DNA of 61,340 nucleotides, the filler included, from Rhabdomonas costata (lineage: Eukaryota), in NCBI GenBank assembly GCA_019059605.1. It is 11 parts of 11 records of this genome, joined end to end, with 100 filler letters (N's around TTAATTAATTAA, not from the genome) between each part and the next. Parts side by side here need not be neighbours in the genome. Positions count along the whole stretch, not along the records: positions 11,347 to 16,847 come from JAHMHO010000062.1; 10 more parts are not named here. The stretch is one strand, 5' to 3'. How positions within the stretch are numbered: position 1 is the first letter of the stretch; each line of letters begins with the position of its first letter. The position numbers were made by a program, and so were the translations under genes. The notes under the pieces are model-generated. The model saw nothing but the letters and a program-made list of their open reading frames with translations, did no database searches and was not told the origin of the DNA. Positions 3,201 to 61,340 of the stretch are shown one piece after another.

Positions 3201-4850
3201 AAAGCGTTGAACTGACCTGACCGGTGGGAATTGCCAATCTGAAACACTTCGTAACACTCGTGCAGAGTGCTCACCTCCATCATCTTCAGTCCTGGAACAG
3301 CTGAAAAAAGCCATGCCAAGAATATGTAATTTGGAGCACACAACAGCATGAAAACAACAAGGCAAACAAGTTAAGGCAGTCAAACCGTCGTCGCCGTAGC
3401 GGTTTCTCTGAAGTTCCAGCACCTTGCCCCCCCGAAGGAGATCCTTGATCACTTCCTTGTGGATTTCCAGGATGGACACTGGAAGAACCGAAGAACAACG
3501 ATGATGTTATTGCTGTTTCGAAACGATACTTCACTTTTACACTTCAGTGCTGCATGATCAGCACATGGAAAAACGGAGCCAAACACAGTGCTCGCCAGAA
3601 AGGCACACGCATACGGGTGATGACAACATGGGACCGAGTCGAATTAGCGGCCTTGTACAGCAGCAAGTCATTCAGCACCCTCATGTACAACCCAGTTTGA
3701 TCACCAATGATGACATGTCCTGTTGGAAAAAGATGTGCATATGTTGGGTGCAAGATGAACATAGCTTCGGAAATTCCAAAGTCTGAAAAACAGACCGTCT
3801 TTTTCGGTGACCTTGCCCAGCACAGTGTGGGTCTTCCCTGAATGCAACAACACCAGTTCACTTCGCACATGAAAAAAAGAAATGAGTTGATTTTCTTCCG
3901 AAACAGCGCACGCACCTGACCCAGTTTGTCCGTACGTAAAAATGGTTGTGTTGTGCCCCTGTTGCAAAAAGAGGAAGAGGTCTGGGATTGGCAGGTTTGG
4001 GGATAAGCATTTTTTAAAATCATGAAAAAAAAACAGACATCCAGAGTTGAATCCACGAGATCCTTTACTGATTCGTAGAGATCACTCTGCGAGTCGTCCT
4101 CATCGAAAATGTAGTTGAAGGAGTAGGGATCTGTGAAAGAGTATGTGCACGGCAAAGCTCAGCGCCACATCCAAGACCAACTGCGCTTCATTCCCTCAGG
4201 TGCTTTTTCGAGTCTTCCAAGAAGAAAACAGGAACAAACAGACACAACTGTCCCTGAGTCAAAGAAAAAAAGAAAAGAAAAAAGGCATACATTGCTTTCC
4301 GGAGTTTGGTGAGTCGTCAACAGGATGGGTCAGGCAAACGGTGTCGTCAGTGGCCTTTTTGGCACTCTTAATTGAAAACGCTTCACCGAACTGAAAAGGA
4401 GAAGCGAAGGGAATCGTGAGAACCATCGGAACGGATACTTCAAACCTCCCTGGGCTGGGTCTGTTTCACTATTCCCTTGGTCTTCCAAACTTGTCAATAA
4501 ACACTATCGACAAGATTTTTGCTTTACTATCGTCTTGTCAAACATAACAACGTCTTTAATAGCAAACGCGATCGCCTTTTTTGGTTCGCTGTTGTCTTGT
4601 GTTGCGCTTACGTGATTTTGACCTCGCTAACACTATGCTGGTATTAAACGATATCTTTTTTTGGTCTTTCCAAGGTAAAATAAACACCGTCATCTTTTTG
4701 ACCTCGTTAACACCTGGAAGGGGGCGGACAGCCCTGAATCTGACTGCTTGACCGTTGCCAGGCTGTGAGTGTAATGTGTTTCTAGCACAGGTCACTTCCC
4801 CTCCAACTCGGAATGCCACATAAAGGCGATAGTGTTCACTTCCGGAAAAG
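245..4850 (-). CDS. Kinesin motor protein, about 18 exons, both ends uncertain
   Basis: Hand-spliced exons stay in frame: YSFNYIFDEDDSQSDLYE, P-loop TIFTYGQTGSGKTHT, switch I MNDASSRSHAVF, switch II LVDLAGSERLKKSGAEG, ETQAINASLACLGNVVNAL, YRDSKLTMLL, SLRFADR, then coiled-coil-like exons down to about 245. Confidence 0.93.
2318..2340 (+). repeat. Short interstitial telomere-like tract (TTAGGG-type) in a kinesin intron
   Basis: gggttagggttagagttagggt, about 3.5 units with one variant. Confidence 0.55.
4233..4266 (+). repeat. Dispersed short repeat, copy A (truncated, in kinesin intron)
   Basis: aacaaacagacacaactgtccctgagtcaaagaa matches the end of copies B and C and is followed by an A-rich tract. 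Confidence 0.8.
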
Positions 4851-6131: not shown

Positions 6132-8157
6132 TCAAGCCTCCATCCCAACCACGATGCAGTCTGGAACTCCGTCGCTGAGCCGCTGAATCAGTGAACCGCC
6201 CGCTGTGTCAATCCCTGTGCTTCCCAAATCCAGCGCCAGCCTCCGAAGCCTCAACAGCCTCTCCCCTGACGCCGAGGAGATCCCCAGCCCATCCACGTCG
6301 GCAGCCCCGGCATTGCCAAGAGGGTTGTGGCTCAGGTTGAGCTCCAGTTGCCGAAGGCACGGTGGAAGGCAGCCCTGCATTGATGTCAGGGAGGTTACCC
6401 GGTTCCGGCTCAGATCCAGCCGCAGCCATATCACAGAGACCCCACTGTATCTCATAAGTCTCGCAAGACCTCCAATCCCATAATTCCCGACACCATTTTC
6501 GCTGAAGTTCAGGGCCATCCGCCGAGGTGCCGCACCCTCACATACCCACAGCGCCAGTGCAACCCCAGTGTCAGGCCACGGCAGCCCCCAAAGCTCAGAG
6601 TGACTGATCTCAGCGCGGGTTTAGGAATCGGACCAACTGTCAGCCCTTGAAGCACGCGTGGGGTCAGGAAGCTAGAGTCCAGCTCCAGGCTCAGCACCTC
6701 TAGATTTGGTAGAAAGCTGGTCGCACAGAACAGGCAGGCCACCCCGTAGTCCGACAGTTGGTTGTGCCCCAGGTTGAGTTCCAGCTCAGCCAGGGTGCTT
6801 CGTACGGCAACACACCGCGCGAGATAATCCAACCCCTCGTCCCCAATCGCGTTTCGGCTGAGGTCGAGGACAAGAGCGCGCAGGCTGGAAGTAGACAGCA
6901 AGGCCGAGCCAAGGCTTTGGGCTCCAGCAGGACCCAAAGAGTTCATCCCAACGTCAAGCACAAGGTGCGTCAGGCCAGGCAGTCCACCAAACNGAGGACA
7001 AGAGCGCGCAGGCTGGAAGTAGACAGCAAGGCCGAGCCAAGGCTTTGGGCTCCAGCAGGACCCAAAGAGTTCATCCCAACGTCAAGCACAAGGTGCGTCA
7101 GGCCAGGCAGTCCACAAAACTCCGCCAAGGCACCCACCCCACTGTCTTGCAGCTCGTTGCTCCAAAGGTGAAGTTGTAGGCTTGTCAGGCGGGTCAGGTC
7201 TGCAAGACAACCCATGGCAGTGATGCCGTGCTGAAAGCCTCGCCCACGAAGCCCCAGGCAAGTGAGTGTGCCCAGCCGAAGAGAGACCTTAACAAAAATA
7301 CGACAACGGCAGCGTAACAGGCACCACAGCGGCAATAACATGATCACAAAAAATGAAAAGCGGCAACCAAAACCCAAGGGCAAGTGTCGCGTGCAATTGA
7401 AGTTTTTTTTTGGGGGGTGTACCAGTGCTAACTATTTCCCATAATTAACAGAATATTAGCCAGCCGCCCGCTCCTACACAAAAGTTGTACCACTCGTCCG
7501 CCCATATCCCAGCCACAGGTTAGTCGTTAGCCATCACCATATTTGACGTGCAAACCAAGGATGCTCATCATTAAAACAAAAACGATTTTTGATGCTGTTT
7601 CTGTGGACGTTTTGACAAAGTCCTTTTCCCCCTTCGTTTTGCTGCGGTGAAAGCAAGCGTAACCTTCACAAAGAAAGTTATCACTGGTAACTGTTACCCT
7701 CCCCCCACCCAACGATAATTGGGCCCATGTGAAAGACAGCCCTAATTATACATTGCCAAAGGGCAAGGAAGACGTCAGTGTAAAGACATCTCGAATTGAG
7801 ACCGCGAACAGATAACTCGGAACGAAAACGGAAGTACTGAAGCATCCGCGATGAGCAGCAGATTTCAAGCAATGGAGTGGGTAAGGACACGTCTGACACC
7901 TCCTTGAGGACGCGAGTGAGAACAGCTTCCCCAATTCCAGGACCCAAGGTCAGCTCCATTTGCGTCACAGCCGTCGACCTCAACCGACTGACCAAGTCCC
8001 TGAAGAGAGACGCCACGGGTATCGAAACGGACGTAAGATGAACCGCACGGGCCCATCCCCGGCAGACCAAGCACATGGCTCGAGTGCAAGCAAAGGAGTG
8101 AATCAGCTGAAGCAGCTCCGCGGGAAGCTCGCGCCGGCTTCGTTGAACACAGGACAT
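6132..8157 (-). CDS. F-box + ribonuclease-inhibitor-type LRR protein; frameshift near 6571 (possible pseudogene)
   Basis: Exon 8157-7900 has F-box-like RELPAELLQLIHSF...MCLVCRGWARAV. Exon from 7287 carries LRRs such as LDLSRNAIGDEG, LNLGHNQLSDYG and LNLSHNPLGNAG. The LRR register switches frame at GCRGL/DTGVAL. Confidence 0.8.
6866..7115. other. Identical about 122-bp direct duplication around a single N (6993), likely scaffolding overlap artefact
   Basis: 6866-6987 and 6994-7115 are the same sequence, separated by a few bases and an N. Confidence 0.85.
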
Positions 8158-11101: not shown

Positions 11102-11609
11102 CTTTAGGGTGAAGGAGCGAACCGCAGTGCGGGGAGGGACTGAACCACTGCATCTAGGAGGAACGCCCGGAGCGGAGCGAAGGGAGTGACGACCATCAAA
11201 GAACCCCTCAAGACCCTTCTACCCACGTGTTCGTTTCACCAACAACNNNNNNNNNNNNNNNNNNNNNNNNNNNNNNNNNNNNNNNNNNNNTTAATTAATT
11301 AANNNNNNNNNNNNNNNNNNNNNNNNNNNNNNNNNNNNNNNNNNNNTGTGGTGGTTCAACTAGGCGGCGGCACGGAACTTACCGATATGCCATGCCCGCA
11401 CTCTTACTCCGTCTTTGCGTGGAGGTAATAATTCTGCTTCGTCCTCGCTTGATTCCTTGTCTCTAGCACGCTTGCGCGGATTATTCCCGAACGGCTCCCC
11501 GGGGTGCCGTCTATGTTTTGCGCTTCTGCGGAAGGTCCTGGACCCTCACTTGTCTCATGACGCGCGCCGATTTCCTCTTCGGCCTCTTTCTGCGAGTGCT
11601 TCGGCGATC

Positions 11610-12060
11610 TGCGCTTGATTTCGTTATAGTGTCCGGGTCCTTCGGGTTCCCGCAGTAGTCGTCAGGGCTCGTCTGCGCGCGTACCTGGGGCGAGATGCAC
11701 CGTTTTGTATCCTTGTTGGGTCTCCTGATAAACCTTGACCCCGATGCCGGTGACTTGGGTGAAGGCGAAGATCTCAAGCGCTCCTCCGTGCTCGGAGGCC
11801 TTGACTTTTTGCAGGTATTCGGTTATCACTGCATCTTTCTGATGCGCGTTGTAGCGGCAGGACAGGTTTGCTCTACCCGCTGAGGCCAGAATCCAGTCCT
11901 GGAGCTTGATCACTAAAAAAAAATCTCTTGCTGCGCAGCGTCCAGCCATGAGGCGATCCTCACTCACACGATTCGCATGCTCTCCATGCAATCATTTCCC
12001 AACAGCGCGTGGTAGAGACAGTGCCCGACGGATCTTCTCTTTTCTACTTGTCAGTGGCTC
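11610..12060 (-). pseudogene. Degenerate OTU-family cysteine protease domain
   Basis: SVGHCLYHALLG (Cys motif, about 12030-12000), EYLQKVKASEHGGALEIFAFTQVTGIGVKVYQ, and PGHYNEI (His motif, about 11635-11620). Interrupted by TGA stops and frameshifts. Confidence 0.75.
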
Positions 12061-12324
12061 CTCGATAGCAACTCTTGTTCAGGTGTGCTACCGACGGCGT
12101 GTTCTCTCCACTGATTGTCCAAGGGTGTCGGGCTGAGCTTGCTGCGCTTCTTCTTTTTCTTCCTGTTCCACTTCTCCGAGTTTTTGATTTCCCGACTGCA
12201 GTGATTCCTCATGTGCGTGCTTCACTCTCCTTTCGTGCTGCGCAGGTTGAGGTCGGGGTGCGTCTCCATCGTGCTGCGTCCGCTGACACGACGTACCACC
12301 TTCTCCCTGGGGGTGTGGTGGCGG

Positions 12325-12331
12325 TCTCCTT

Positions 12332-12376
<45 letters not shown>

Positions 12377-12447
12377 CTTTTCTGCCTTAACATCGCACAA
12401 ACAAAAACAAACGCGAACAAACAGAACAAATGTCCCTAAGTCAAAGA
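12325..12447 (+). repeat. Dispersed short repeat, copy C, with expanded (GT)n
   Basis: Same tctccttcacgtgtg start and tgtccctaagtcaaagaa end as copy B. Confidence 0.85.
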
Positions 12448-13568
12448 AGAAATCCCGTGCTTGCCAGGAGAAAAAGAGCAACGTGGGGTGGGCCAAAACC
12501 TGAGTCAGAGGAATTTGAAGGAGATCCCTCAGGGGAGTTCCAGTAGCAATAATACGTGTTCCCCTCGCTCTGCAACCTCACCCCAGGAATGCTCCCAAAC
12601 AGCACAGTGGAACCCCCCGCCGTGGCCTTCTTGCAGGCCTTGTAGAAGGAAACCCCCCGCCGCGAGATCACATACTGCGCAAGCTCGCTAAGCAGCTGCG
12701 GGGACTTCTCCTGCAGACGCGCGGTGACTATGCGACACAATTCGGCACGCCCTGACCCCCCGGGAAGGGTGTGGTTAGGACACAAAGACTCCCCAGGACT
12801 CTTCGCATTCAGGACGCACCAGCAAACGTTCTGGTTTGTCTCCAGGTGCACCCCAGGTATCTGCCCAAACAGTGCCAGAGGAGTTGAGCTCTTCAGGGAA
12901 AAGAGAGAGGCCTGGTAGAACTCCTCACCCAAGGTGGTAATCACATGTTCCACCACTTCAGTCAGAGGCACAGAGTTTCTCTTTTCCAGAAGTTTCAAAA
13001 CACAATTCGACAGGTCACCCAAGTCAGAGGTCGTGGCCACCCGGGCAGCCCGGGCCTTACCCAAAGCCCGCTGCAGCAACTGCGCACTCAAGCTCATCAA
13101 GGTGGGGTTTCCTACCCCAAGAACCGCTATGCCTTTTTCACTCAAATATTCGGCCAGCACGTTGAGCTGGCTCGACTTAGAGGCCAGACAAACGGAGCCC
13201 GGAGCACCCCGGGAAACGACAAGTTGCACCACGTCGCTGTAGATCTGCCAGATGGTCGGCTGCGTCAACCCACAACCTGATGACACCACCCTGAGCTGCA
13301 CTGTGCCCAGAGCTGACTGCAAAGAAGGATCAACGGTGAAGGTCGGGGTGCTGCTGTAAAGCACATACTGCTCAACCTTACCCACGGCTGCATTGATTGA
13401 GCAGCTGAGCTGGAGAAGATGCTCTGCCGAGAAGCTGTCAATGTCGATGAAGGCCCAAGGAGCAGGCGAGGCAGGAACACGAGCACTGGCAACGCTCCTG
13501 GGCGAGCATTGATGAGCCGATTTCAGAAGACTGTGGTTGGAGAGCTTCGCACCGAAGGCCTTCCACAT
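12441..13568 (-). CDS. NYN (PIN-fold) domain + two OST-HTH/LOTUS-like repeats (unit A, intact ORF)
   Basis: WAFIDIDS...YVLY...IYSDVVQL...VCLASKSSQLNVLAEYLSEKGIAVLGVG follows NYN/LabA topology. Two internal repeats end LFGQIPGV and LFGSIPGV. The basic, acid-free N-terminus looks like a presequence. A possible donor near 12499 makes the 3' end uncertain. Confidence 0.7.
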   Translation of the reverse strand: MWKAFGAKLSNHSLLKSAHQCSPRSVASARVPASPAPWAFIDIDSFSAEHLLQLSCSINAAVGKVEQYVLYSSTPTFTVDPSLQSALGTVQLRVVSSGCGLTQPTIWQIYSDVVQLVVSRGAPGSVCLASKSSQLNVLAEYLSEKGIAVLGVGNPTLMSLSAQLLQRALGKARAARVATTSDLGDLSNCVLKLLEKRNSVPLTEVVEHVITTLGEEFYQASLFSLKSSTPLALFGQIPGVHLETNQNVCWCVLNAKSPGESLCPNHTLPGGSGRAELCRIVTARLQEKSPQLLSELAQYVISRRGVSFYKACKKATAGGSTVLFGSIPGVRLQSEGNTYYCYWNSPEGSPSNSSDSGFGPPHVALFLLASTGFLL

Positions 13569-14215
13569 TATGTTACATCAGCAGACTTGGGGACGTGTAA
13601 GTGGGGGGGGGCGTCTCTAAAAGAGCGGTCTCTGGAGGTGCAAAAGTCTTCGTTTCGTTTGTGCGAGCTCCCCTTTCCTCTCCCCTCCTTTCCTCTTCCC
13701 AACTCTCCCATTGTCCTTCAACTTCTTATTGCTTCTATTCTGCAATGCAGTTTCTTCTTTTGCTGAAAATTACTGCCCTCTCGTTCGAGCATTGCTGTCT
13801 CTCGCATTTTTCACTGAGGGAATGAACGAAACGAAACGCCAGAGCTCGAATTTCGCAATGCGTACCGTAATGAGATAAATATCAGAAGCGGGAAATAAAA
13901 AAATGTTCGCAAGGTCACAGATATGGGCAGCAAACATCTGCAGTCTTCTTGGCGATGCATTCAACTACTGGGGGACCAATGACGGTTGCAGGTTTGATGA
14001 TCGATCACCATCCAATCTTGCGAATCACATTAATAGCGCATGCACACAGTATCGTGGCTAATGTGGATCTATCGCGACGAAGCTCAGAATTTGATTCCTG
14101 CGCAACTCCATGGAAATCTGCTGTTCACCCGCCGGAAGCGAAGCGCAAGGCAACCGATTTTTCCAAGCCAGCGGGAACAACGGGTTGCCAAGCAGCTTCC
14201 GAATGTGTCTCCAAA

Positions 14216-14600
14216 CTAATCTAACCCGGGATCATAGAACGCAGTGCAGCGCCCCTTAAAAGAGGGGTGGCCTACACCTATGACCTCGCCAGTGAGCGCG
14301 AGCTGGGATGCCAAAAGGGCAAGGTTTGAGTTCCCCGAAACGAGGCACAGCCGCGTCTTGCTCTGCAACAAAGCACAGCAAACGTCAGAGCGTAAAGCAT
14401 CCATACCAGACAAAATATGTGCACTCCAGTACTGTTGTCAAACGTGGGGTACAGGCTCAAACAAGAAATTTGAGAGTCCAGAAACGAGCTCTGCACCGCT
14501 GTCACATCCTACGGTCTCAAATTATTGTTTTGAAGAAATAAAACGGCATCGCAACCTGCAACCTGCGTTCTTAGCACAATGGGGCACCTTCAGCAAACAA
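14216..14600 (-). pseudogene. NYN-like unit B (in-frame TAG and a frameshift)
   Basis: DAVLFLQNNNLRP*DVTAVQSSF...SLY, then a shifted frame gives SGMDALRSDVCCALLQSKTRLCLVSGNSNLALLASQLALTGEVIGVGHPSF. Confidence 0.6.
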
Positions 14601-15094
14601 GTTTGGCATGAAATAAGAGACGCAAAGATATGGGTACAGCCTTCACACACAATGGAAAGGTAAAGGTGGGGAAGAAGATGAGTGGAAGTTGAGATGAAGA
14701 AAACGATGCAGGAAGGGGAAAAGTCATTGATTAGATCTTTCCGACTTCACATTGTCCAGTTTTCGATCTCCGGCGCAGACAGCAGCAGCACAGACACAAA
14801 TGGAGAGGAGAGGTATCTCCCCTCTCATTGCCATAGTTCTTGGCGGTTTGTCCGGCCGTTCCTTCTTCCAGGAATCCCTCCTCCCTTTCTGTTATTGAGC
14901 TGCATTGTGACCTTGGAGCATTTTGTTTCCCATGCTAGGTGAGGAGAGGATTAAGTCATCAAATCCTGAGCTCACTGTCTAATTTTCACAGCATGAAGGT
15001 CAGGTGCCTTGCGCCTTCAGAGATTACTTGCTCACACTGCTCCCTCCAACCGCTCCCCTCAGTGTCCTCCTGCCACGCTATTCCTTGTCGAACA

Positions 15095-15447
15095 CCTGCG
15101 CCCTGGACAGGGCAAAGATGTAGATCCGGGCAGCCGCGGCGTTCTCCTGAAGCGCTTGGACCCGTCGAACCTCGCACCCCGGCAGCGCCGGGTGGTCCTT
15201 CTTCGTCGTAAACAATGGTGTGCGTCAGCTGGTCAGCCAAGGTGCGCTGCAGGTAGGAGGTGACCCTCCAAAGAGGGGTTCTGAAGCTATCCCCATCAAC
15301 CAGACCGATAAACTTGCCAGTAGACGGTTGAATCTCTGAGAGACCTGCCGGTGAGTTGGTCAACTGCCGAGCCTTCCCCAGATCACCGCGCTGCAGACGG
15401 GGCATGAAAGCCCGCGGCACCAGCATGGGCCGCACCAAAAGGGACAT
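15095..15447 (-). pseudogene. NYN-like unit C (frameshift near 15207; downstream exons not resolved)
   Basis: MSLLVRPMLVPRAFMPRLQR...FIGLVDGDSF...TIVY, then the +1 frame gives TKKDHPALPGCEVRRVQALQENAAAARIYIFALSRAQ followed by a GT donor. Confidence 0.6.
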
Positions 15448-15824
15448 GAAAGCACAGGAATACCTCAACAACCAACTCAACAACCAACTCAACAACGTTG
15501 GCCAAAGCTTGTAACTGTGAACAAAAAAGCAATTACAAAAAGCAGCAATAATCTTTCTGACGTTATGGATGCTCTCAGTCGACAGCAGAAATCATTTCTT
15601 CAACATGACGGCAACCAAAACCACTAACCAAATCACCTGGTCGATCAGCTGCTTTCAAAGATCCTATCGAAGACCCTGCAACAAACACTTCCTTAGCCAC
15701 ACAAATAGCAGAAGAAGGCAAGCGCTGACATGGACTCACCCACACAATAAAGGTGTTGGTTGGCCAGGAAAAGCATTCGCTGGCCAGAAAGAAAGAACCC
15801 CAAAATTTACAATGATGAACAACT

Positions 15825-16847
15825 TCAAGGGACACTGGAGGCGTCTGTATCAAGGAAACACATCAGCTCTTCGCCCAAGCGCTTCACCGTAACCCCAGCA
15901 ATGTCAGCAAACACGTCGGAGGCCTTCATCTTTTGTCCAGCGGAAGACTTTCTGCATGACATATAGAAGGGTAAGCCACGGATAGAAATAATGTGTTGAG
16001 CAACCATATTGACAGCGGGCTTTCAGCAGCTCGGTGACGATTTCGGAGAGGTCGGTTTTCTGGAAGCAGTCCAGAGACGCGTCACCCTCGCCGTCTGTCG
16101 CACCATCACGCGCTTCCGAATTCGAGTAGTATGAAGAGGGAACCCGTCAAATGGTGACGGTGATGTTTTCCTCGGTCAGGCAGTACTTTACAGGCTCAAA
16201 GAGGGCACGCCCGGCAAAGCAAACAACCTCCCGGGGAATCTACAATTCCAGAAAAGAGATTTTTGTGGTTCTCCACTTCGCGGGGTAAATCCAGTGGCAG
16301 GTTTCACGTGTAAACTGCTCTCAGTCCCAAATTAAGAATGCAACTAAACCAAAGTCGAAAAAGAAGGGCGCCATATTTACCATCTCAAAAACATTTGACT
16401 CATTGGGCCAACAGAGAAAAGAGAGAATGCACCTTCATGACGCCTCAACTTATTTCGCGTCAAACGCTTCAAAAAGAAAATCCTGCTCCGACGTCTTTCG
16501 AAATCGAGAATTCCTGGAATGCAGGGACCATGAAGCATATTAACGACCTGATCATCTGCGAAACCGACGAGATACATTGATCTTGCAGATCCTCATCCGA
16601 GGTGCATTCAACTCTAACAGTCCCCAAGGGCAGCGTGACTCCCGACTTCCCAATGCCTGACTTTCCCAGAACAACAAAATATTCTACTCGACTTCCCAGA
16701 GATACCCCGTGTGTCCTCAGGGTCTGCACCAAAACGTCCTCAGGAACCGTTTGCCCGTCAACGAACACAAGCTGTGGAATTACACCCACCGCCACCGGTG
16801 GAACATCTGCCCCCTGGATCACTCGCGAAGGCGTCGTCACCCCAACA
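15825..16847 (-). pseudogene. NYN + OST-HTH unit D (5' end cut by contig edge; in-frame TGA and frameshift)
   Basis: LVFVDGQTV...VEYFVV. C-terminal LSEIVTELLK/MVAQHIISIRGLPFYMSCRKSSAG..DVFADIAGV aligns with unit A LCRIVTARLQ..LAQYVISRRGVSFYKACKKATAG..LFGSIPGV. Confidence 0.65.
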
Positions 16848-16947: not shown

Positions 16948-18696
16948 TTGTGTTTGTCCCGGATTCAGGCCATGCGTAACAGGGCCCCTGTGGGCTCTGC
17001 TCATCCGTTCGAGGTCTCCAAGGGTGACTTGAGGCGAATTATCAATACTGTTGGTCCAAAATGGGACGCGAATCGTGAGGGCTTATCGAAAAACCTTCTG
17101 GCTAATGCGGTGAGAAACTCCCTTGAAGTGGCCGTGAGCCAGAAATGGGATGCTGTGGCAATTCCACCCATTAGCACAGGAGTCTACAAAGCCCCACTTG
17201 ACATCGCTGCTGAAGTGATTCTGGAAGTGGTGCTGACTTTCTTCTCCACGCATCCTAAGACGCAGATGAAAGTCCTGCTTGTATGCCTTGAGAATCACAA
17301 GGCCCACTACTTTGAGAGCCTGGTCAGGCTGGCGCTTGGAATGTCCGTAAGGCAGGACCCCAATCCTGGTCCTGACCTTCTGCCGATAAGCTATCAATGG
17401 TCTTGGCGAATGGATGATGGCTCCTACCACTGCTATGACCCGAACGAAAACGAACAGATTGAGAGAGCCTATTTGAAGAAGGAAAATATGACTGGAGATT
17501 TCATTTTCGGTGATATTGACTGCGAAAAAAACGGCTGGACCTACAACATCTTCTTCGACTTCGGCAAGGGAACGGAGAGTTATCAGCAGAACACCAGAAC
17601 CAAAAAGAAACGTCACATCAAGCGAGCCTCAATCTCTGCGCCGAAGCCAATCGAAACGTTCAAAATCCCTTCCCGGTGTGGCGATCTATGCAAAGAGCTG
17701 GGGTGCACCAGCGTTTCTCTCCCTCCACCATCCAGTTTTGCAGTTCTGCGAGGTCTACCTGAGGTGGTGGCAAAGGCAGCCGAGTTCCTTTCGGCAACGT
17801 ATGAGAAGAACCTGGTGGTTGAAAATATCGATGGGAGGCTGTTTTCCATTTCCCCTGACAGAAACGACGTTGCAGGTCAACTCTCTGAGCTTAGCCGACG
17901 TCTAGGTGTCACCGCCACAGAGCAGTGGCGCGACAAAAAATGGCAAATCAAGGTTGAAGGACTGAAGCACCTAATGCCTAAAGCCCGGGTGCTACTCACC
18001 TCTGCCATCACCAAGTCTCAAAACAGCCCATTGGGTTGGGATGATACCGGTGCCGTTAAGCTTTTGCGAGAGCTTTCGAAGGAAACCGAGGAGTGGCTCT
18101 ATGTCAAAAATCGGGTGGCTCTGACTCTTCCGTCAGCAAAGCTGATTAAGCTAGAGATGGTGCAGAACCCCTTCCTTTGGCACAACTTTTGCCTGCAACA
18201 GCAAAAGGTTGAGGCCTCGAACGACGGAAACCCTAACTTCCGCTTGATGTTTCACGGGACGCGCGACCATACCCCGGAGGAAATATACCGGGATGAACTT
18301 GGTCTGGACATCCGGTTTGCTGCTTTGGGAATGTGGGGGAGAGGCACATATTTTGCAGATCATGCCTCATATTCCCACCAGTATGCACACACCCAAAATG
18401 TCTCCAACGTGCGGCAGATGTTCTTGTGCTTGGTGGCGCGTGGATCTTCGAAGGAGATGCCTCCAGACCAGAGTTTGTTTCGCCCTCCCGAGAGAAAGGA
18501 CGCGACTTCCTCCTCCGTGTGCTGCCTTCGTCATAGCAGTGTCTCGGGGGTAGCTCAAGGCTGTCCGGTGTGCATTGTGTACGACAATCACCAGGCCTAT
18601 CCCCAGCTGAGGTTCGATGGGACGTCTCCCACCCAGTGCCGAGTCGCTCGGAGAGTATTTTGCTGTGTCAATGCGCAGAACGTTTTGGTGAAATGA
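16948..18696 (+). CDS. Macro + WWE + PARP catalytic domain protein (PARP14/15-like mono-ADP-ribosyltransferase), 5' truncated
   Basis: Macro: IINTVGPKW...AVAIPPISTGVY. WWE: YQWSWRMDDGSYHCYDPNENEQIERAY...QQNTRTKKKRHIKR. PARP: LMFHGT, GMWGRGTYFADHASYSHQY, RQMFLCLV, IVYDNHQAYP. Confidence 0.9.
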   Translation: MCLSRIQAMRNRAPVGSAHPFEVSKGDLRRIINTVGPKWDANREGLSKNLLANAVRNSLEVAVSQKWDAVAIPPISTGVYKAPLDIAAEVILEVVLTFFSTHPKTQMKVLLVCLENHKAHYFESLVRLALGMSVRQDPNPGPDLLPISYQWSWRMDDGSYHCYDPNENEQIERAYLKKENMTGDFIFGDIDCEKNGWTYNIFFDFGKGTESYQQNTRTKKKRHIKRASISAPKPIETFKIPSRCGDLCKELGCTSVSLPPPSSFAVLRGLPEVVAKAAEFLSATYEKNLVVENIDGRLFSISPDRNDVAGQLSELSRRLGVTATEQWRDKKWQIKVEGLKHLMPKARVLLTSAITKSQNSPLGWDDTGAVKLLRELSKETEEWLYVKNRVALTLPSAKLIKLEMVQNPFLWHNFCLQQQKVEASNDGNPNFRLMFHGTRDHTPEEIYRDELGLDIRFAALGMWGRGTYFADHASYSHQYAHTQNVSNVRQMFLCLVARGSSKEMPPDQSLFRPPERKDATSSSVCCLRHSSVSGVAQGCPVCIVYDNHQAYPQLRFDGTSPTQCRVARRVFCCVNAQNVLVK

Positions 18697-22937: not shown

Positions 22938-25900
22938 CGAGCTCATTGCCCACGGCGGAGCTGTGGTCAGTGATGGTCCTGTTCAGGCGGAACCCACTGA
23001 AGCCATTGTGTGCCACAAGAAACCAGTTCGAAGGGAGCAGCAGATAGACAGAAGTCCCGAGCCTTCCTTTGCAAACCCTTCTGCTACCGCCGAAGGCTTC
23101 TCGGCCGCAATACATGAGTTTTCTACCCTCGCCCAGAGCGACAAAGGCCCGGAAGACCGAGTGGTCTTGGAGTTTCGGGGGTTTATGGAGAATGGACAAC
23201 AATCTGGACTTTTAACGGCAGCTTCTGCTGAGGTGCTTGGAAACCTCACCAAAACCCTTCACCACGGTTTGCAAGCAGCACGGTTGCTTTCGCTGTGTCC
23301 AAAACTGGATCAACCGGTTTTCGTTTTGTGCTCTTTATGTCAGTGGTTTTGCGCTCCAGCGCTCATCTGAGACATTGTGGCAAGAGCGGGGACCCGAACA
23401 TCGTGTACTTTCAGCGTGCGCTCAGTTGCGCTGCACTGGCGCTCTTTGTCATGTCACGCGAGGGCATTCCACGGGTTTGCTTTGTTTCGCTGGCATCCGG
23501 AGTCCGGAGCTAACCCTTCTCACCATGTTAAGTTTGCGCTGATTCTGTTTCACACAGGAAGTGGTTGTTGAGGAGGCATTCGAGACCGTTATAGTGTTCT
23601 GCAAGGAGCTGATGGCAAATCTGAAAAACTGGTTCACGTCCGACGCTGGTAAACACTTGGTGCACATTTTTCCGTTTTCTCGGTAATTTTAGCTTGCTAT
23701 AATGTCCTGCAATGCTTTAGTTTGGACACCTGATGTCATTGGGGGTTGGGGATTCTGCAGGGAAGAAGGCCGTCAAAGGGGATGCCTGGAAAGGGATGGC
23801 GGAACGGTGTCGGTCTGTGCTGCAGGACTTGGCTTTGCCTTTGGAAATGCGCCTGGTGAGTCAGATTGACGCTGTATCTGTGGTGAGTATACCCTTAACC
23901 GGCATCTTTCTGCCTGATCCAGGTCCAAAAAATGCTTTACCCCCGAGAACTTCACCGGCTGGCTTTTTTGTTGTGCCTTCATTTGTTTATTTTTTGCAGT
24001 CAAGATGACGGCTAAAAGCTCGGCACCGTACTTTTTGCATCCCTCCCTGGACCTTTTGTGGGCGTTGGTAGGCAGCTATCCCTCTCTTCGCGGAGACATT
24101 GTTTGTCAAGTCGTCGCCCTGATGTCCACTCTCTCTGCGGTCAGCTTCCCCACANNNNNNNNNNNNNNNNNNNNNNNNNNNNNNNNNNNNNNNNNNNNNN
24201 NNNNNNNNNNNNNNNNNNNNNNNNNNNNNNNNNNNNNNNNNNNNNNNNNNNNNNNNNNNNNNNNNNNNNNNNNNNNNNNNNNNNNNNNNNNNNNNNNNNN
24301 NNNNNNNNNNNNNNNNNNNNNNNNNNNNNNNNNNNNNNNNNNNNNNNNNNNNNNNNNNNNNNNNNGGGGTTCAGGTTGCATTACGGCGAGGCGAGTCTCT
24401 CCATTGCGATGTTCACGGCACTCCTGCTCCAGATTCTCCAGGCATGTGTTCCGATGCCGTCGACGCTCCACAGGAGCCGTCTGCTACTGCCCGAGGAGCA
24501 AGTCGCCCAGATCACCTCATGCTCAGTGCACTGCGCTGAGGTGGCCGCCGTGGCCAAAGGCATGGTCCGGGTGTTCCTCGACCACAACTTCCGTGCTGCT
24601 GGTTTCCTAGCTGTCTCTGCCTCACGGTTTTTTTTTCCGCCGCGTGGTGATGCTGCTCACTGCTCAGGAACATTTTGTTTTCATGCTTTGCTGGCCACAA
24701 ATTTTCCGTTTTTTCAGTAAATTATTGCGTTTCCTTTCCAAACAAGGACAATGCTGTCATGGACCTTATTTCGGTTTCCTGGAATTTCGATTGTTTGGTG
24801 CTTGCTCAGGATCGCCTTGAAAAGGAATTGTCTGTGAGTCTCCTGCACCAGTTAGTTCAGGACTTGCTGCTGTGCCTCACCAGGCCTGAGTGGCCTTCCG
24901 CGGAGATCCTTCTCCGCGCTCTTGTGGAAGCCCTGGTCGACCGGTACGTGTGTCATGTTCCCAACCTCGGTCCTCGCACAAACGGTGTATTCTGGGAGAG
25001 GATGAAAACCATGTCAATTGAGATACTGGGAAAGGTCATCTTGCACTGCGATCGGGAGTTGGACTTGCATCCGAACACAAAGCTCGATCCAGATGCTGAT
25101 GTGGAGCCCTGGTTTGTGCCCCCTTCTGTTGAGCCTAATGGTCGCGAAGATGACGAAAAGAAACCAACACGAAAGGGCCGTGGGGATTCCAAAAAGGCAA
25201 AGCAGGGCGACGCTGTCTCCTGTGAACTTCCTGTCCCTGCTTTGTTCGATCCGACAAGAGACACAACATACAAGCAGCTTTACTTGTTCCTCGGTGATCC
25301 TTCTTGTTGGGTTGAGAACAATCGTCTTTGGCTCTCAGCTCGACAGTTGATGATATGCCTTTGGAATAACGAAGAACACGTTGCTTTTCTGGAGGCTTCG
25401 AAAAAGAAGGACGACTCTGAGTCTTCCAAAGCTCGAGTGCAGCAATGGCAGTCAGAGCATGAAGCCAAGAGCAAATGGCAGGGGTTTCTTTTGACCGAAG
25501 ATGTGAAATCTGCACCCTTACCTCCGAAGGGCGAGTCCGAACTCGCTGTGCTCTATTCTCAAAAACGAGGCCTTGTGCGGCAACTTCTGCTCGGCCGAAC
25601 AGGCTCTTTGCTTCATCCGGTGTATGCGGACAGCATCCTGAACCTGCTGCTGGTGCTTTTCCGTAAGCCTGACACCCCTGCTCAGAGCCGCAGCAAGGCC
25701 GCAAAGGTTCTCCGGGAGATTGCGGAGTCCAAGCCCGATCGCCTGTGCGCGATATGGAGGCACACCACCCATGGCCTGCGCGACGCGTCAGTTGTAGTGC
25801 GCGAGAGTGTATTAGCGTTGGTTGGTTTCATCCTTCATTCCGGCAAGCTGCGCAATGAGATGTTAAGTTCAGAGGTTGACAAAGACTCTGCGAACCCGTT

Positions 25901-27980
25901 GTGTGCCCTGGTGGGCTGCATTGTGGGAAGACTGAAGGACAAAGGATTCAGTGTGGTAAAGCGGGCGGTCTCCATTTTGGACAAGGTCCTGAGTGCGGGT
26001 ATCATTGCCGAACATCGTGTGCTGGAGCACAGGGTCTTCATCGAACTTCTTCACTGTGTGAAACATTCTGATGTGCGGTTGCGAGAAATGGTGGTGAGGC
26101 TTTTTCGACACGTCTGGTTTGGCATCCCTTTTGACATTTCAGACGTCAAGGGGGACATGCTGATTTTTGCTGAAGAGGTGGTGGAGGACGGGCCATCCGA
26201 GCTGGTGAGCTGTGCAGATAAGATTCTCGACCTGCTCGTCTCAGATTGTGAGAATGAGCTGATTGAATTCGAGGAAAAACACCCCCTGGTGGAAGCGCTG
26301 CGCTACATGGTGTTGCCTGGGAAGCAGAAGGCCTGTCACACCGAGCATGCTGCTGAAAGCTTGTGCCGAGCAGCAGAAGCATTGCTTTTGCGTGTTCGTA
26401 CGATGGAGAAATCCGATACCCCAATTGCAGACATCCGGCACAAAGGCAATTCCTCCGTTGGTTGCTGTGTGGCGACTCTTCACTTGCTTGCTGTCGTGAA
26501 ACCTGAGCTGTTCAAGAATCACCTTTTGGGATGCTTTTCGGCGCTTCTCTGTGTACCCATGGCTCCGAAGGATGAGTTGGTGGTTTGCCTGTTTCACGCG
26601 ATTCAGACGATTTCTCGGGTGGTGCGGTATTCGAATGCTGTGCAGGTGTTGAGCCCCGAACGCTTGAGAGTTGACATTATTGAGCCGCTGATTCAGATCA
26701 CGCGAGTATTCAATGTCCCCAAGCAGCATCAGTACACACTGAAAATATCCCAAGCAGCGGTGCAATGTTTGTGCCATCTGCTTCGATCAAGCTCGGCCAG
26801 CTTTGAGACCTTCATGCCAGCTGTGTTTGACCATTTTAATAGTGTCTACTTTTTCCATCAGCATCGGTTTCTGAGGGAATCATCTCGGTTTTCCGAGTTG
26901 GCGCCATACATTCTCCGGTACCTGTTGCTCCTGTCGTGCTTCGCTCGCGGGTTTGAATGGGATAAACACCTTGAGATTCTCCGGGGGATCAAGACAAAGG
27001 AAAGCAATGAGTTAGCCGGAGGTCCTGGTGTTCTGGAGAACTGCTTCGTGCTTTGCGAAGCCTACCGGACCACCCCATGTGCCTCGGACCTGAAGGAGAA
27101 AATAGAAACGATGATTATTGGCATCGTGGGAAGCTGCTGCATGATAAACCCGCGTAATTTTGTGCAGCGTTCTTTGCCGTTTTTAACCGAGATGCTCGCT
27201 CGTGCGAGCCCCGACCTGCAGTGTCACACTCTCAAAATGGTTTGTGAATACCTCTTGCACGAAGAAGAAGTGATATCGCAGGCAGCGGTTCGTCAGCGCA
27301 GTGATGCCATGTCCTCTGCTCAGGAAGACAGTGGACTGACCAGCAGTCTTATGCAACAGCTTCTCAGTGGGGTTTTGTGTTGTCTGCAGAGTCAGACCCT
27401 TCGTGTCCGCAGTAAAGCCCTGGAAGTTATCGACTTGACAGTTCGACATGGACTAGTGGTTCCAGCTCTTTGCGTAGAAGGAGTCGCTGCCTCCTTGTCG
27501 GACGTGGGTGCACTTCGGCCACGTGCTGTAGATCTGCTTAAATTTCTCGAGGAAAAGCACCCAGCATTTCTGCTCAGCAAAGTTACTGCCGGAATAGGTC
27601 GCTCTTTTCTCTTCCAGATCTGCTGCCTGAGGCTTTCACCACCGGAAGTGCACGGGTTCATGTTCGACGAGAGGGATTGTCCCGTAAGTCTACACGAGCC
27701 TCTTCTTGACTTTCTGCTTAAAACGAAGAGTTCCAGCAACGCTTTCCTTCCCGAGCTTTTGCGCTTCGCCTTGCGGAACTCGGGTGGTGCTGAAGACTTC
27801 ATTCGATTGTTGGTTAAAGTGGGCTCTGGGGAAGAAGCCACGGCGGTCTGCAATTCCCACCTAGGGTTTCACTTCGTGAGAGTTATCGTGGAGTCGCTTG
27901 CCTTCCACTCCTTTGCGAAAGAAGACCAGGTCATGGGAGTTATGGAGCAAGTGGACAATCAGATCAACCTCCACAGTGAG
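22938..27980 (+). CDS. SCC2: Nipped-B / SCC2 cohesin loader, partial (several small exons and one about 3.2-kb exon)
   Basis: LVQDLLLCLTRPEWPSAEILL (NIPBL LLS..NKPEWPAAE motif), RSKAAKVLREIAE, LRDASVVVRESVLALVG, LKDKGFSVVKRAVSIL, DSGLTSSLMQ, HEAT-repeat character; ends at donor gag|gtacga. Confidence 0.9.
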
Positions 27981-28612
27981 GTACGACGTTCTTGCTGAGT
28001 TTTTATGCGACCAACCCCGCGGGGTATGAACCTGTGAAATTAACTGCGATGGCAAATTCATGCTCTTCCCAAACCCCNNNNNNNNNNNNNNNNNNNNNNN
28101 NNNNNNNNNNNNNNNNNNNNNTTAATTAATTAANNNNNNNNNNNNNNNNNNNNNNNNNNNNNNNNNNNNNNNNNNNNTTGTGTATTTGGGTGTAGTGAGG
28201 GGGGGGCACGTTTGGGCTAATTGATGTGCTTGGAACATTGATCTGCAAATTCAGAATTGCAATGCATTGTTGGCCTGCCCAACAGTGGATTACACATAAT
28301 AATCCGAGAATAACCAAATATAACCAAATAACAACCAAGCAACGAGGATGAAAGGCTTTTTTCCGCAAACCAGTGCCTTGGGAAGAGGGCAGAACTCAAA
28401 CCGCGGGGGAGCGATTGCAACACGAAACGGGGAATTTGAACCCGAAATTTAGTTAGGGTGTCGAACGACTTTGCTCGATCTTCATCCAAAAGGATAACAA
28501 CTCCCTTCATGATTGGTGTGAGTAGATGGATTGGGGTTTGAGCTTTCCGGTTTTTTCTGTTCGTCCAGCTTAGCATTCTGCCCTGCTCTGTGATGGTGTT
28601 TCAATCTTGCAG

Positions 28613-46824: not shown

Positions 46825-49269
46825 GCGATTTACCGGTCTGAGCAATGTGTGTCCAAAGTTTTGTTTTTTCTGACGACTTTGATGGAAAAGGCTATATTTC
46901 GAAGATTTGTTTTATTTCTAACGCTTTTTCACTATTGTATTTCACGGAGAAGAAATTCTTTTGAAATGGAATCCCACCCCAGCGATAGAAATGAGTGCGC
47001 CACCACTCCCCGCCTTCTTCTAACGAAACTTCCGCAGTCATTTTCAGGGAGCCAATACCACTAGATTCACGTACGTGGGTCAGACTACCGCAGCCTCCCT
47101 TCAGTGTTTGCATCAGTGAGACGGGCCGACTCCAATGGAGTTGGACGCCGCCGTGCAGTCACACTCTCATGGACTTGGAGCCTGTTTGGATCTCTCGACT
47201 ACTGCTTTTACAACAAAAGGAGCAACCATAATGCCTAACATCGCAGTTGCCAGCAATTCCAGAAATTGGGACGAGCCCTTCAGAGCGCCGCCACGTGAGT
47301 CCCAGCAGGGGCCGTGAAAGAAGAGAGTCGCCATATGGGGAACAATACAGGAGAGAGTACCCCTACCGAGGAAAAGATCGAGATGAGCGGAGCCCTCCGA
47401 GACGCGCTCGACTCCAAACGAAACGTTTACAAACGAGGCCGCGATCGGGACCGATATCAGGACAGAGACAGAAGGGACTCACCTCGGGACCGACGTCCGC
47501 CATCCCGAGACAAAGTTTTTGAGCGGAGCAGCCAGAGGCTACCGTCCCCCTCTCGCCAAGACAACAAACCCGTCTCACCAAGATCCGCAAGACGACCTCC
47601 AAGCCCCAGAATGGTACCCCAGCAGGATTGTATCTGTCTACTACTGTGGCCAAGTTGGGCACTTCATCAGAGAATGTTCCCAGCGGAAGACCGAGTCACC
47701 GAGAAAGGAGGAGGTGGAGCACAGGGGGTTGGGTACCGGGTCGGTTGGAGGTGGAGATGGAGGGCGGAGTGTTGGCTTTGAGAGGTCAAACTGGTGCGGG
47801 GGATGAAATGGGCACCTGCCTCCCGAGGTGAGGTTGAGCTCCACGCTGTCCAGGATGGAGCGTGTTGTTGTGTAGATCTGGGGTGATTGTTACAATTATT
47901 GTATTAGTAAGGACGGACTACAGGGTAGAGACGAGGAGCTGGGCTTAATTCGGACGGAGTCATCTTCTGCGAAGAGGCGCCCGCGACGAAAATCCAACGG
48001 CTTTGCGTGTGTTACGCACTACCAATAAAAACCGCTTGCGTGGTTGTGTCAATGGATTATGACTAGGCGTCAGGAGAAAGCCTATCGGAGTCTCAACCTG
48101 AGCCAGGAAATGTTCGAAGTCTACTTCCCCTGCTTTTGAAAACTTTGGCTCATGTCATCAAAACGACAGCAGGACCGAGCGCGACCGCTTCACCGTGCGA
48201 TGCGGGTTGCGTCTGCGCCGGTTGTAATGCGACGTCATCGATGTTTGTTGCACCCCTTACGTCTGATGCGTCAACTCAAAAAGATTTCGATCTAACGACA
48301 GTCATCGTGCGTTGCGAGACTGCCACCCATGAGGTAACTTCGACTGACGTGCGTTACGCTGTTGTGGAACCCCCGTCCAACCGCGACACAGATTCACTGT
48401 CACGTGAGATGCGGTCAGTGCCCCTGTCAAGCGATCCAAACTTGCTGTCACGTGCGATGGGGTCAGCAGGTGAGGACAGTAACCCACCAACGACAGACCC
48501 CGACCGACGTGCGATGCGCAGTCGTGGGATCAAAGCCTGGAAGCCATCCGTCGGTGCCTCTGCTGGGAGATGCTACGCCGCTGCCACATGTGTTGCGGAC
48601 ATCGAAGCAGCACAGGAAGCCGGCGCTGAAATATCGTGTGTTGCGACCGCGCCAGTGAATGGCAGATCCTGGTCGATCTCCCAGCGTTAACTGCTAAAAA
48701 CGTTTCTACATAAATCTTGTCTTCTGTCTGTGTTACTCGTGCACCTCCACGTTCTCCCCCTTTTCTTTTGCAACCACTACCGGTTCTCTTCCCAAAGAAC
48801 TAACGCTGACAGCTTTGTTTCATGAGCGGGTTGTCCCCGACGTTGAAGTTTCCATTGAAGAAGGATCAGACCCCCCGTCTCAGAGGCCACTACTGTTCCT
48901 ACCGCTTACATTTGGAAACATGTAGTGCCCGCCCTGTTGGATTCAGGAGCTTCAGATCGCTTCATGAGCGAAGCCCTGGTCACTGAAATGCAACTACCGC
49001 GCAAGCGTCTGAAGCAGTTGATGTCAGTCAGAGTCTCTAACGTACCCACATTGGTGCGACCGGCTTTGTCCGGGTGTCCGTCTTGTGTTTCCATCAGCCA
49101 TGGCAGTCCTTCTCAACCTGGACTGTCGCCGCCGCCATCCGACGACCAAAGGATAGATCAGATGCCCCCGCAAGTAGAACAAACAATGGGACCGGCAATA
49201 TTTGAACCAGCCTCCGAATCCTCCGACTCAGCAGCAAGTAAACCTGCGCCGTCTTCCAGGGAGCAATCC

Positions 49270-49353
49270 CCTCTAGTGGTGGAGCATTCACCTCTAATGG
49301 TGGAGCATTCACCTCCAGTGAGTGAGGATACACCTCCAGTGGTGGAGCGTTCA
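49270..49353 (+). repeat. 21-bp tandem repeat x4 in the Pro-rich linker after the protease
   Basis: cctctagtggtggagcattca / cctctaatggtggagcattca / cctccagtgagtgaggataca / cctccagtggtggagcgttca. Confidence 0.9.
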
Positions 49354-61096: not shown

Positions 61097-61340
61097 CTGT
61101 TCGCAGCCCACAGTGAAGAACAGGGAAGGAGTAACGTACGGGAAAACATATACCGAAAAACAAAATGCGAGTGGAGAACAAGAGAGTCATGCCATAGAAA
61201 TGTCTGCGCACGTCTGTGGGATGAGATTGCTCCACGTTACCCGGGGGTGCGCAACGCACGAATCACGCGATTCATGAGAGTTCCATAAATCATCGCTGGC
61301 ACACCGGCGTGCAGATGGGCAGACGGTGTACCCCAACCAC

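What the first reader, a model, noticed from the sequence alone, without database searches (positions are those of the whole stretch)
12441..16847. Tandem array of four divergent NYN(-LOTUS) units with mitochondrial-like presequences and eroded active sites
Seen: four same-strand units in about 4.4 kb, each with an NYN beta1-like motif (FIDIDS, FLQNNN, VDGDS, VDGQT). Units A and D share an OST-HTH-like repeat. Units A and C start with Arg/Lys-rich, acid-poor N-termini. Known: NYN RNases (LabA/MARF1 type) need the DxxN, K-x-x-D and SGDxD acids. Here these read SKSSQ (A), SGNSN (B) and ENAAAA (C). Inference: a lineage-specific family of catalytically dead, organelle-targeted RNA-binding proteins in birth-and-death turnover, possibly involved in mitochondrial RNA processing. 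This is the best candidate for an undescribed system in the window.
Basis: partly seen in the sequence, partly recalled or inferred. Interest (0 to 1): 0.72.

Follow-up and report, generated by a model that had tools for sequence, protein, structure and literature searches.

The report
Mitochondrial dead-nuclease RNA-binding family, euglenid
A euglenid protist carries a small family of RNA-binding proteins built from a worn-out ribonuclease fold plus LOTUS RNA-binding domains, probably sent to the mitochondrion; this stretch holds one working gene and three broken copies.

Summary
Partly confirmed. The stretch is one 5.5-kb contig of a fragmented euglenid assembly. Unit A differs at 3 of 185 residues from a named Rhabdomonas costata transcript protein. 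A is an intact 375-aa gene. Its model matches MARF1 NYN (Z 12.8) and its repeat matches LOTUS domains (Z up to 9.4). It keeps 1 of MARF1's 4 essential aspartates, yet the domain is under purifying selection (dN 0.41, dS 1.50). A, a second transcribed paralogue (P0002) and D start with 41-44 acid-free, Lys/Arg-rich residues; no targeting predictor was run. The array is not four working genes. D is the 3' half of an intron-split NYN-NYN-LOTUS gene with a stop and a frameshift, B is a decayed NYN, and C is frameshifted with only motif-level similarity. Best reading: mitochondrial pseudo-nuclease RNA adaptors in birth-and-death turnover. NYN+LOTUS (MARF1, DNE1), its mitochondrial form (plant MNU1/2) and dead NYN partners (C. 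elegans NYN-1) are known separately. My searches found no report of the combination in euglenids. New variant of a known kind; localisation and inactivity are inferred.

The parts
12441..13568 (-). Unit A: intact single-ORF gene, 375 aa (N-terminal extension + degenerate NYN + 2 LOTUS); transcribed
   Evidence: ORF; transcript-derived protein P0001 differs at 3 of 185 residues
13458..13568 (-). A residues 1-37: Lys/Arg-rich, acid-free N-terminal extension, mitochondrial-presequence-like
   Evidence: first acid at residue 42, 5 K/R in first 35; control 38 of 3428 35-mers; pLDDT<50 for residues 1-35
13074..13457 (-). A NYN (PIN-like) domain; Asp42 kept, the other three MARF1-type catalytic Asp positions replaced
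   Evidence: five-strand alpha/beta model; VIA Z 12.8 to 5yaa MARF1 NYN, 11.4 to 2qip; catalytic positions from PMC6217404
12798..13028 (-). A LOTUS/OST-HTH repeat 1
   Evidence: 30% identical to repeat 2; not modelled on its own
12522..12761 (-). A LOTUS/OST-HTH repeat 2
   Evidence: model pLDDT 88; VIA Z 9.4 TDRD5, 8.5 Tejas, 8.5 TDRD7, 8.0 MARF1 LOTUS
14216..14610 (-). Unit B: decayed NYN-only relic, closest to the first NYN of D; stops at 14592-14590 and 14511-14509, frameshift near 14410; start not recognisable
   Evidence: Pfam NYN E 0.21, below cut-off
14986..15447 (-). Unit C: ORF of 153 aa with basic N-terminus and the family's beta1 signature; the middle reads more protein-like in another frame (changes near 15195 and 15082); probable old relic, homology weak
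   Evidence: no protein hit, no second genomic copy
15825..16239 (-). Unit D exon 2: end of second NYN, linker, LOTUS; in-frame TGA at 16149-16147, frameshift near 16020
   Evidence: homology to P0002; LOTUS profile E 1.5e-7
16240..16528 (-). Inferred GT-AG intron of D; acceptor clear, donor position uncertain
   Evidence: phase-0 intron at the same place in the P0002 gene, shown by transcript protein against genome; AG before 16239
16529..16846 (-). Unit D exon 1, 3' part: linker and first two thirds of the second NYN; the gene continues beyond the contig end
   Evidence: L003 overlaps it over 422 bases with 8 substitutions and 1 gap and supplies extension + first NYN; 39% identical to the second NYN of L002

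Best explanation
Unit A and its paralogue P0002 are lineage-restricted NYN-LOTUS proteins imported into the euglenid mitochondrion, where they work as non-cutting RNA adaptors. Shown by computation: the folds, the transcription of A and P0002, the loss of three of four catalytic Asp positions in the first NYN, and purifying selection on it. Inferred: the acid-free basic N-terminus is a cleaved presequence; the LOTUS winged helices bind mitochondrial RNA; the dead NYN serves as a binding surface that protects transcript ends or brings in an active nuclease or another processing enzyme, in the manner of plant MNU2 with PRORP1 or C. elegans NYN-1 with RDE-8. The family grew by tandem duplication and domain shuffling (NYN-LOTUS-LOTUS in A; NYN-NYN-LOTUS in P0002 and D); B, C and D are decaying copies.
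For: NYN fold: Z 12.8, rmsd 3.2 A over 127 residues to MARF1 NYN, next unrelated row 9.5. LOTUS fold: 5 of the top 7 rows are titled LOTUS, TDRD5, TDRD7 or Oskar N-terminal domains. MARF1 needs D178, D215, D246 and D272, each single Ala mutant inactive (PMC6217404); A has Asp only at the beta1 position (D42), with Ser72/73 after beta2, Pro104-Ile106 at the start of helix 3 and Ser132 after beta4. dN 0.41 against dS 1.50 for A and the P0002 gene. First acid at residues 42, 44 and 45 in three paralogues whose N-termini barely align; control 38 of 3428. Transcript-derived proteins exist for A and P0002. Seven lesions in about 420 codons of B, C and D exon 2, against one in about 600 codons where transcript protein and genome could be compared, and that one near a contig end. 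A further decayed copy of D's 5' half lies elsewhere (L045).
Against: No targeting predictor or proteomics was available. Neither transcript id is in the published predicted mitoproteome of R. costata. That list needed a MitoMiner hit, a Euglena orthologue or manual addition, so the absence says little, but no Euglena mitochondrial orthologue was assigned. D42, D44 and D112 are invariant in the three first NYN domains, and the second NYN domains keep more acids, so a residual metal site is not excluded. The full-length model is poor outside the NYN (mean pLDDT 46.5), and only 1 of 5 LOTUS models exceeded pLDDT 80. Foldseek gave no match at E<=0.001 and Pfam does not call either domain in A. 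No RNA target or partner was identified.
Confidence: 0.5

Rival explanations
1. The proteins are still active mitochondrial ribonucleases of the MNU type with a rearranged active site (invariant D42, D44, D112), or the second NYN of P0002/D is the active domain paired with a dead first NYN.
For: Three acids are invariant across first NYN domains that are 36-49% identical to A's. By eye, the second NYN of P0002 and D keeps the beta1 Asp and a pair of Asp at the start of helix 3. Active-inactive NYN pairing is described in C. elegans (bioRxiv 10.64898/2026.09.04.749402).
Against: Loss of any one of four Asp abolishes MARF1 cleavage. The beta4 Asp is absent from A and from D's second NYN. D44 and D112 fall at positions where intact NYNs also tend to have non-catalytic acids (recalled). 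A has no second NYN. The second NYN was not modelled.
Confidence: 0.17
2. The proteins are cytosolic, like MARF1 and DNE1 (P-body or granule mRNA regulators), and the basic N-termini are not import signals.
For: MARF1 and DNE1 are cytoplasmic. The ids are absent from the predicted mitoproteome table. A showed no R-2/R-3 cleavage motif in my pattern test.
Against: Three barely alignable N-termini all stay acid-free for 41-44 residues (control 38 of 3428); P0002 has an R-2/R-3-type motif. The intact NYN protein L005 has no such extension. A presequence-bearing NYN is also predicted in the Diplonema mitochondrion (PMC12699882 supplement).
Confidence: 0.15
3. B, C and D are intact genes and their stops and frameshifts are errors of a fragmented assembly, so the array encodes four working proteins.
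For: The assembly is fragmented (104,289 contigs). One false-looking stop was seen near a contig end in the P0002 gene, and L003 differs from the window by a one-base gap in a run of A.
Against: Seven mid-contig lesions in about 420 codons against one in about 600. No D-type protein among 1.84 billion representatives, although its first NYN scores about 74-78 bits against A. No hit for C among 78 candidates. L045 shows real decay of a D-like copy.
Confidence: 0.1
4. The proteins bind mitochondrial DNA (nucleoid or replication factor), using the winged helices and a dead 5'-nuclease-like fold.
For: Winged-helix DNA-binding proteins follow closely in the fold lists, and flap-endonuclease folds appear at Z 7-8.
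Against: The best matches are LOTUS and NYN, both RNA-directed; LOTUS prefers RNA to DNA G-quadruplexes (PMC7498356 abstract).
Confidence: 0.07

Closest known systems
Arabidopsis MNU1/MNU2 (mitochondrial NYN + two LOTUS + OHA + WW)
   Same: NYN followed by two LOTUS domains, as in A; mitochondrial; catalytic activity not demonstrated; MNU2 binds PRORP1 (PMC9181182 passages).
   Different: Listed for seed plants only and as absent in Euglenozoa. No sequence hit to them. No OHA or WW domain seen here; location here only inferred; some members here have two NYN domains.
MARF1/Limkain-b1 and plant DNE1 (LK-nuclease/NYN + OST-HTH)
   Same: Top structural match for the NYN and among the top for the LOTUS; the architecture is widespread in bacteria and eukaryotes (PMC2848206, PMC5499597 passages).
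   Different: Those are cytoplasmic, active and keep their aspartates. A keeps one of four, has no RRM and has a presequence-like extension.
C. elegans NYN-1/NYN-2 pseudonucleases; Utp23
   Same: PIN/NYN fold without catalytic residues used as scaffold or RNA-binding partner.
   Different: Regnase or Fcf1 branch, not LabA/MARF1; not described as mitochondrial in the passages read; no partner known here.
Diplonema papillatum DIPPA_08757, predicted mitochondrial LabA-like NYN protein of unknown function
   Same: Euglenozoan, presequence + NYN, predicted mitochondrial (score 0.864; PMC12699882 supplement row).
   Different: By eye it keeps the catalytic acids; no LOTUS annotated; it did not appear in my sequence searches, and orthology was not tested.

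Membership tests
NYN/LabA-MARF1 (PF01936) ribonuclease | PIN-like five-strand alpha/beta fold | tested here: met
   Model of A residues 38-168; Z 12.8 to 5yaa and 11.4 to 2qip
NYN/LabA-MARF1 (PF01936) ribonuclease | Pfam PF01936 score over the cut-off | tested here: not met
   No NYN hit for A, P0002 or L003; B piece 12.5 bits against cut-off 24.2. Controls L004-L006 pass
NYN/LabA-MARF1 (PF01936) ribonuclease | Four catalytic Asp (ends of beta1, beta2, beta4; start of helix 3) and Asn after beta1 | tested here: not met
   A keeps only D42; the Asn position is S45. Mapped by secondary-structure position, no residue-level superposition
NYN/LabA-MARF1 (PF01936) ribonuclease | Metal-dependent RNA cleavage | not testable with these tools
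   Needs an assay
LOTUS/OST-HTH (PF12872) | Winged helix-turn-helix of LOTUS type | tested here: met
   Z 9.4 (rmsd 2.2, 73 aligned) to TDRD5, 8.5 Tejas and TDRD7, 8.0 MARF1; Atlas top three OST-HTH at 0.79-0.81, a lead only. Other winged helices reach Z 8.0
LOTUS/OST-HTH (PF12872) | Pfam PF12872 match | tested here: not met
   0 of 4 repeats match; a genome search with the family did not find them
LOTUS/OST-HTH (PF12872) | RNA binding | not testable with these tools
   Needs an assay
MNU1/2-type mitochondrial maturation factor | Mitochondrial location | tested here: inconclusive
   Composition test supports a presequence; no predictor was run; absent from the published predicted list
MNU1/2-type mitochondrial maturation factor | Orthology to plant MNU (sequence similarity, OHA and WW domains) | tested here: not met
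   No plant hit among 1.84 billion representatives; no OHA or WW hit in Pfam
MNU1/2-type mitochondrial maturation factor | Loss alters 5' ends of mitochondrial transcripts | not testable with these tools
   Needs knock-down and end mapping

The most novel reading that the evidence does not exclude
Euglenids independently recruited a LabA/MARF1-type NYN-LOTUS nuclease to the mitochondrion and split it into a dedicated RNA end-processing system: dead NYN-LOTUS adaptors (A) select transcripts, and two-NYN members (P0002) hold an inactive-active NYN pair in one chain that makes the cut. It would be a euglenid mitochondrial RNA-processing machinery distinct from those of kinetoplastids and diplonemids.
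Probability: 0.15. Interest if true: 0.72.

Novelty: new variant of a known kind. Interest (0 to 1): 0.43.

Why it matters
Euglenid mitochondria lack the editing and splicing machinery of their kinetoplastid and diplonemid relatives, and 998 of 1,786 proteins in the Euglena mitoproteome have no assigned function (PMC7403612 passages). These proteins are invisible to Pfam but resolve to NYN and LOTUS by fold. They give testable candidates for mitochondrial RNA handling in euglenids, and a possible case of convergence with plant MNU1/2. They also suggest that other 'unknown' euglenozoan mitochondrial proteins may be eroded NYN-LOTUS proteins.

Tried and rejected
Word-indexed protein searches with A, alignment A1 (only P0001 found, and it missed P0002, its own member, so sensitivity is poor) and C found no relatives in other species. 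The exhaustive phmmer search gave 3 hits: two R. costata proteins and one repeat-driven bacterial chance hit. Absence in Euglena is therefore not shown, as no exhaustive profile search could be run. Sequence searches of solved structures gave only a WD40 repeat-summation artefact or nothing significant. NCBIfam gave 0 families for 6 proteins. PIN7 and OST-HTH family searches of the genome found nothing over cut-off (the PIN7 control rang nowhere). A DNA search with the whole stretch found only L003 and copies of a CA-repeat flank among the 40 of 285 candidates scored. Stop read-through as an explanation of the lesions was rejected: both TGA and TAG occur inside broken units, frameshifts occur too, and A and the P0002 gene end in TGA. 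Small introns were rejected for C and B because homologues predict missing rather than extra sequence (by eye). Neighbouring genes in the window lie on unrelated contigs joined by linkers, so they give no context. Earlier scan notes held nothing. C, B and the second NYN domain were not folded, and raw reads were not examined.
Full report
Setting. The window is a string of small contigs joined by N-linkers about every 5.5 kb. The finding lies on one of them, 11347-16847 (G000:C62), in a 97-Mb assembly of 104,289 contigs. An exhaustive phmmer search of unit A against 1.84 billion representatives gave 3 hits. Two are EukProt transcript-derived proteins of the euglenid Rhabdomonas costata: P0001, which differs from A at 3 of 185 residues, and P0002, a 464-aa paralogue. 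The third is a repetitive bacterial protein matched by chance. The window is therefore from R. costata or a very close relative, and A is transcribed.

Anatomy. All units are on the minus strand. A (13568-12441) is one open frame of 375 aa. P0002 gives the family plan: N-terminal extension, NYN-like domain 1, linker, NYN-like domain 2, linker, one C-terminal repeat. Its gene (L002, L010, L009) has conventional GT-AG introns, one in phase 0 inside domain 2. D has the same plan. The window holds only its 3' half. Contig L003 overlaps it over 422 bases (8 substitutions, 1 gap) and supplies the extension and domain 1. After an inferred intron at the same place as in P0002, D resumes at 16239 and ends at 15825, with an in-frame TGA at 16149-16147 and a frameshift near 16020 inside the repeat. 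B (about 14610-14216) has stops at 14592 and 14511 and a frameshift near 14410. C (15447-14986) is open in one frame, but its middle reads more protein-like in another, with changes near 15195 and 15082. A lacks domain 2 and has two repeats.

Are the units related? With X at the breaks and frames chosen by eye, B scores 19.8 bits against a profile of the three first domains (0 of 500 shuffles reach it). D's second domain scores 8.2 bits (0 of 500), P0002's second domain 1.1 bits (14 of 500) and C -1.3 bits (128 of 500). Pairwise, B is closest to D's first domain (z 12.8), the two second domains match each other (z 26), and C matches none of the other 8 sequences. C shares only the beta1 signature of the first domains, found at 2 places in 118,792 aa of six-frame window translation (A and C; mean of 40 shuffles 0.025), while a profile of the first 40 columns did not rank C among its 10 best rows. 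D's repeat is found by a profile built without it (E 1.5e-7). Further genome searches found a decayed copy of D's 5' half with a stop, a frameshift and a replaced stretch (L045) and a 127-base exact fragment (L047), and nothing more for B, C, the repeats or domain 2. These searches score few candidates and give lower bounds.

Folds. Pfam does not call NYN or OST-HTH in A, P0002, L003 or the 4 repeats, although it calls intact NYN domains in three other genes of this genome (L004-L006). The Atlas pointed to NYN (0.85) and OST-HTH (0.81), both leads only. A model of A from a 3-row alignment is usable only for residues 36-167 and shows five strands alternating with helices. Against 48,161 chains its best matches are mouse MARF1 NYN (Z 12.8, rmsd 3.2, 127 aligned) and VPA0982 (Z 11.4); the next row is 9.5. 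A model of repeat 2 (best pLDDT 88; the other four 74, 55, 54, 53) matches TDRD5 (Z 9.4, rmsd 2.2, 73 aligned), Tejas and TDRD7 (8.5), Egalitarian (8.1), an unnamed protein and MARF1 LOTUS (8.0) and Oskar (7.7). Foldseek listed the same families but none at E<=0.001.

Active site. MARF1 uses D178, D215 and D272 at the ends of strands 1, 2 and 4 and D246 at the start of helix 3; each Ala mutant fails to cut (PMC6217404, passages). By position in the model, A keeps D42 at the end of strand 1, has Ser72/73 after strand 2, Pro104-Ile106 at the start of helix 3, and Ser132 two residues after Ser130 at the end of strand 4; the Asn after strand 1 is Ser45. This mapping is by secondary structure, not by superposed residues. 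D42, D44 and D112 are invariant in the three first domains. By eye the second domains keep the strand-1 Asp and two Asp at the start of helix 3, but D's lacks the strand-4 acid; they were not modelled. The first domain is still constrained: dN 0.41 and dS 1.50 between A and the P0002 gene, 0.53 and 1.90 between the P0002 gene and D, dS saturated in two other pairs, and 0.77 against 1.40 between A's two repeats.

Targeting. A, P0002 and D have no acid before residues 42, 44 and 45 and carry 5-6 Lys/Arg in the first 35. Only 38 of 3428 overlapping internal 35-mers from six proteins of this organism are acid-free with 4 or more Lys/Arg. P0002 has an R-2/R-3-type motif; A, C and D showed none; C has an acid at 22. 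This fits a mitochondrial presequence (established knowledge) but is no prediction run. Neither transcript id occurs in the 6 readable supplements of the R. costata paper (one further file was too large to read), including its predicted mitoproteome, where a control id was found (PMC8219788). That list required a MitoMiner hit, a Euglena orthologue or manual addition.

Real decay or assembly error? B, C and D exon 2 carry 7 lesions in about 420 codons, all inside the contig. Where transcript protein and genome could be compared (185 codons of A, about 415 of P0002) there was 1, within 12 bases of a contig end. No D-type protein came up in the exhaustive search, though its first domain scores 74-78 bits against A in the genome, and none came up for C. 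Real pseudogenes are the likelier reading; raw reads were not examined.

How it most likely works. Shown: folds, transcription of two members, loss of catalytic positions, constraint, turnover of copies. Inferred: import into the mitochondrion, RNA binding by LOTUS (MARF1 LOTUS binds RNA; LOTUS binds G-rich RNA, PMC7498356 abstract), and a dead NYN used as a docking surface that shields transcript ends or recruits an active enzyme (0.5). Rivals: residual or second-domain nuclease activity (0.17), cytosolic regulator (0.15), lesions as artefacts (0.1, compatible with the others) and a mitochondrial DNA-binding role (0.07).

Comparison with what is known. NYN/LK-nuclease plus OST-HTH is an old and widespread architecture (PMC2848206 and PMC5499597, passages). 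Arabidopsis MNU1/2 are mitochondrial NYN proteins with two LOTUS domains whose loss changes 5' ends, whose activity is not demonstrated, and which a review lists for seed plants only (PMC9181182, passages). C. elegans NYN-1 is a pseudonuclease partner of active RDE-8 (bioRxiv 10.64898/2026.09.04.749402, passages). DNE1 is cytoplasmic and active (bioRxiv 10.1101/2021.10.01.462782, passages). A predicted mitochondrial NYN of unknown function is listed for Diplonema (PMC12699882, supplement row and passages). The Euglena mitoproteome paper does not mention NYN or LOTUS domains in its text or in the one supplement held, which was cut when stored (PMC7403612). Five full-text searches returned no paper on euglenid NYN-LOTUS proteins; the library lacks most subscription papers. 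So A works like MNU or NYN-1 but is not filed as an active NYN nuclease or as an MNU orthologue.

Verdict. A real, transcribed, divergent NYN-LOTUS family with probable mitochondrial import and probable loss of catalysis; the window shows one gene and three relics. New variant of a known kind, interest 0.43.

Noticed in passing
window, gaps at 5488, 11247, 16848, 22410, 28078, 33595, 39135, 44682, 50248, 55845: The window is a concatenation of about 11 unrelated contigs joined by N-runs around a 12-base all-frame stop linker.
   Followed up: yes
window 16948-18696 (+): Macro-WWE-PARP gene, 5' end cut by the linker; the PARP domain's last motif runs into unrelated residues, possibly an intron or a lesion.
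   Followed up: partly
window 24651-27998 (+): 1115-aa open frame of Nipped-B/Scc2 cohesin loader with no stop or intron over 3.3 kb.
   Followed up: no
window 47387-49716 (+): Zinc knuckle and weak gag-type aspartyl protease hits in separate frames: relic of an LTR retroelement.
   Followed up: no
window 6135-7431 (-), 57674-58069 (-), 60068-61186 (-), 3704-4081 (-): LRR gene in several frames with near-identical internal repeats, a SURP module, a WD40 gene and a weak kinesin piece.
   Followed up: no
L005 374-2248 (+) and L006 685-2451 (+): Two paralogous long open frames with an intact-looking NYN between Cys-rich zinc-finger-like segments and what looks by eye like a cold-shock/S1-type C-terminal domain.
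   Followed up: partly
L004 447-1292 (-) and L007 1-429 (+): L004: C-terminal half of an intact NYN followed by what looks like an RRM. L007: a NYN that looks bacterial by eye, possibly a contaminant contig.
   Followed up: no
L045 421-905 (+); L047 1-127 (+): Decayed copy of the 5' half of gene D with an AT-rich replaced stretch, and a short exact fragment of it joined to unrelated sequence.
   Followed up: partly
window 12337-12450: CA/GT microsatellite with a short flank just downstream of A that matches many other contigs at 80-92%.
   Followed up: no
L002 versus L010 overlap: The first intron of the P0002 gene is present on two contigs with small differences, suggesting two haplotypes in the assembly.
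   Followed up: no
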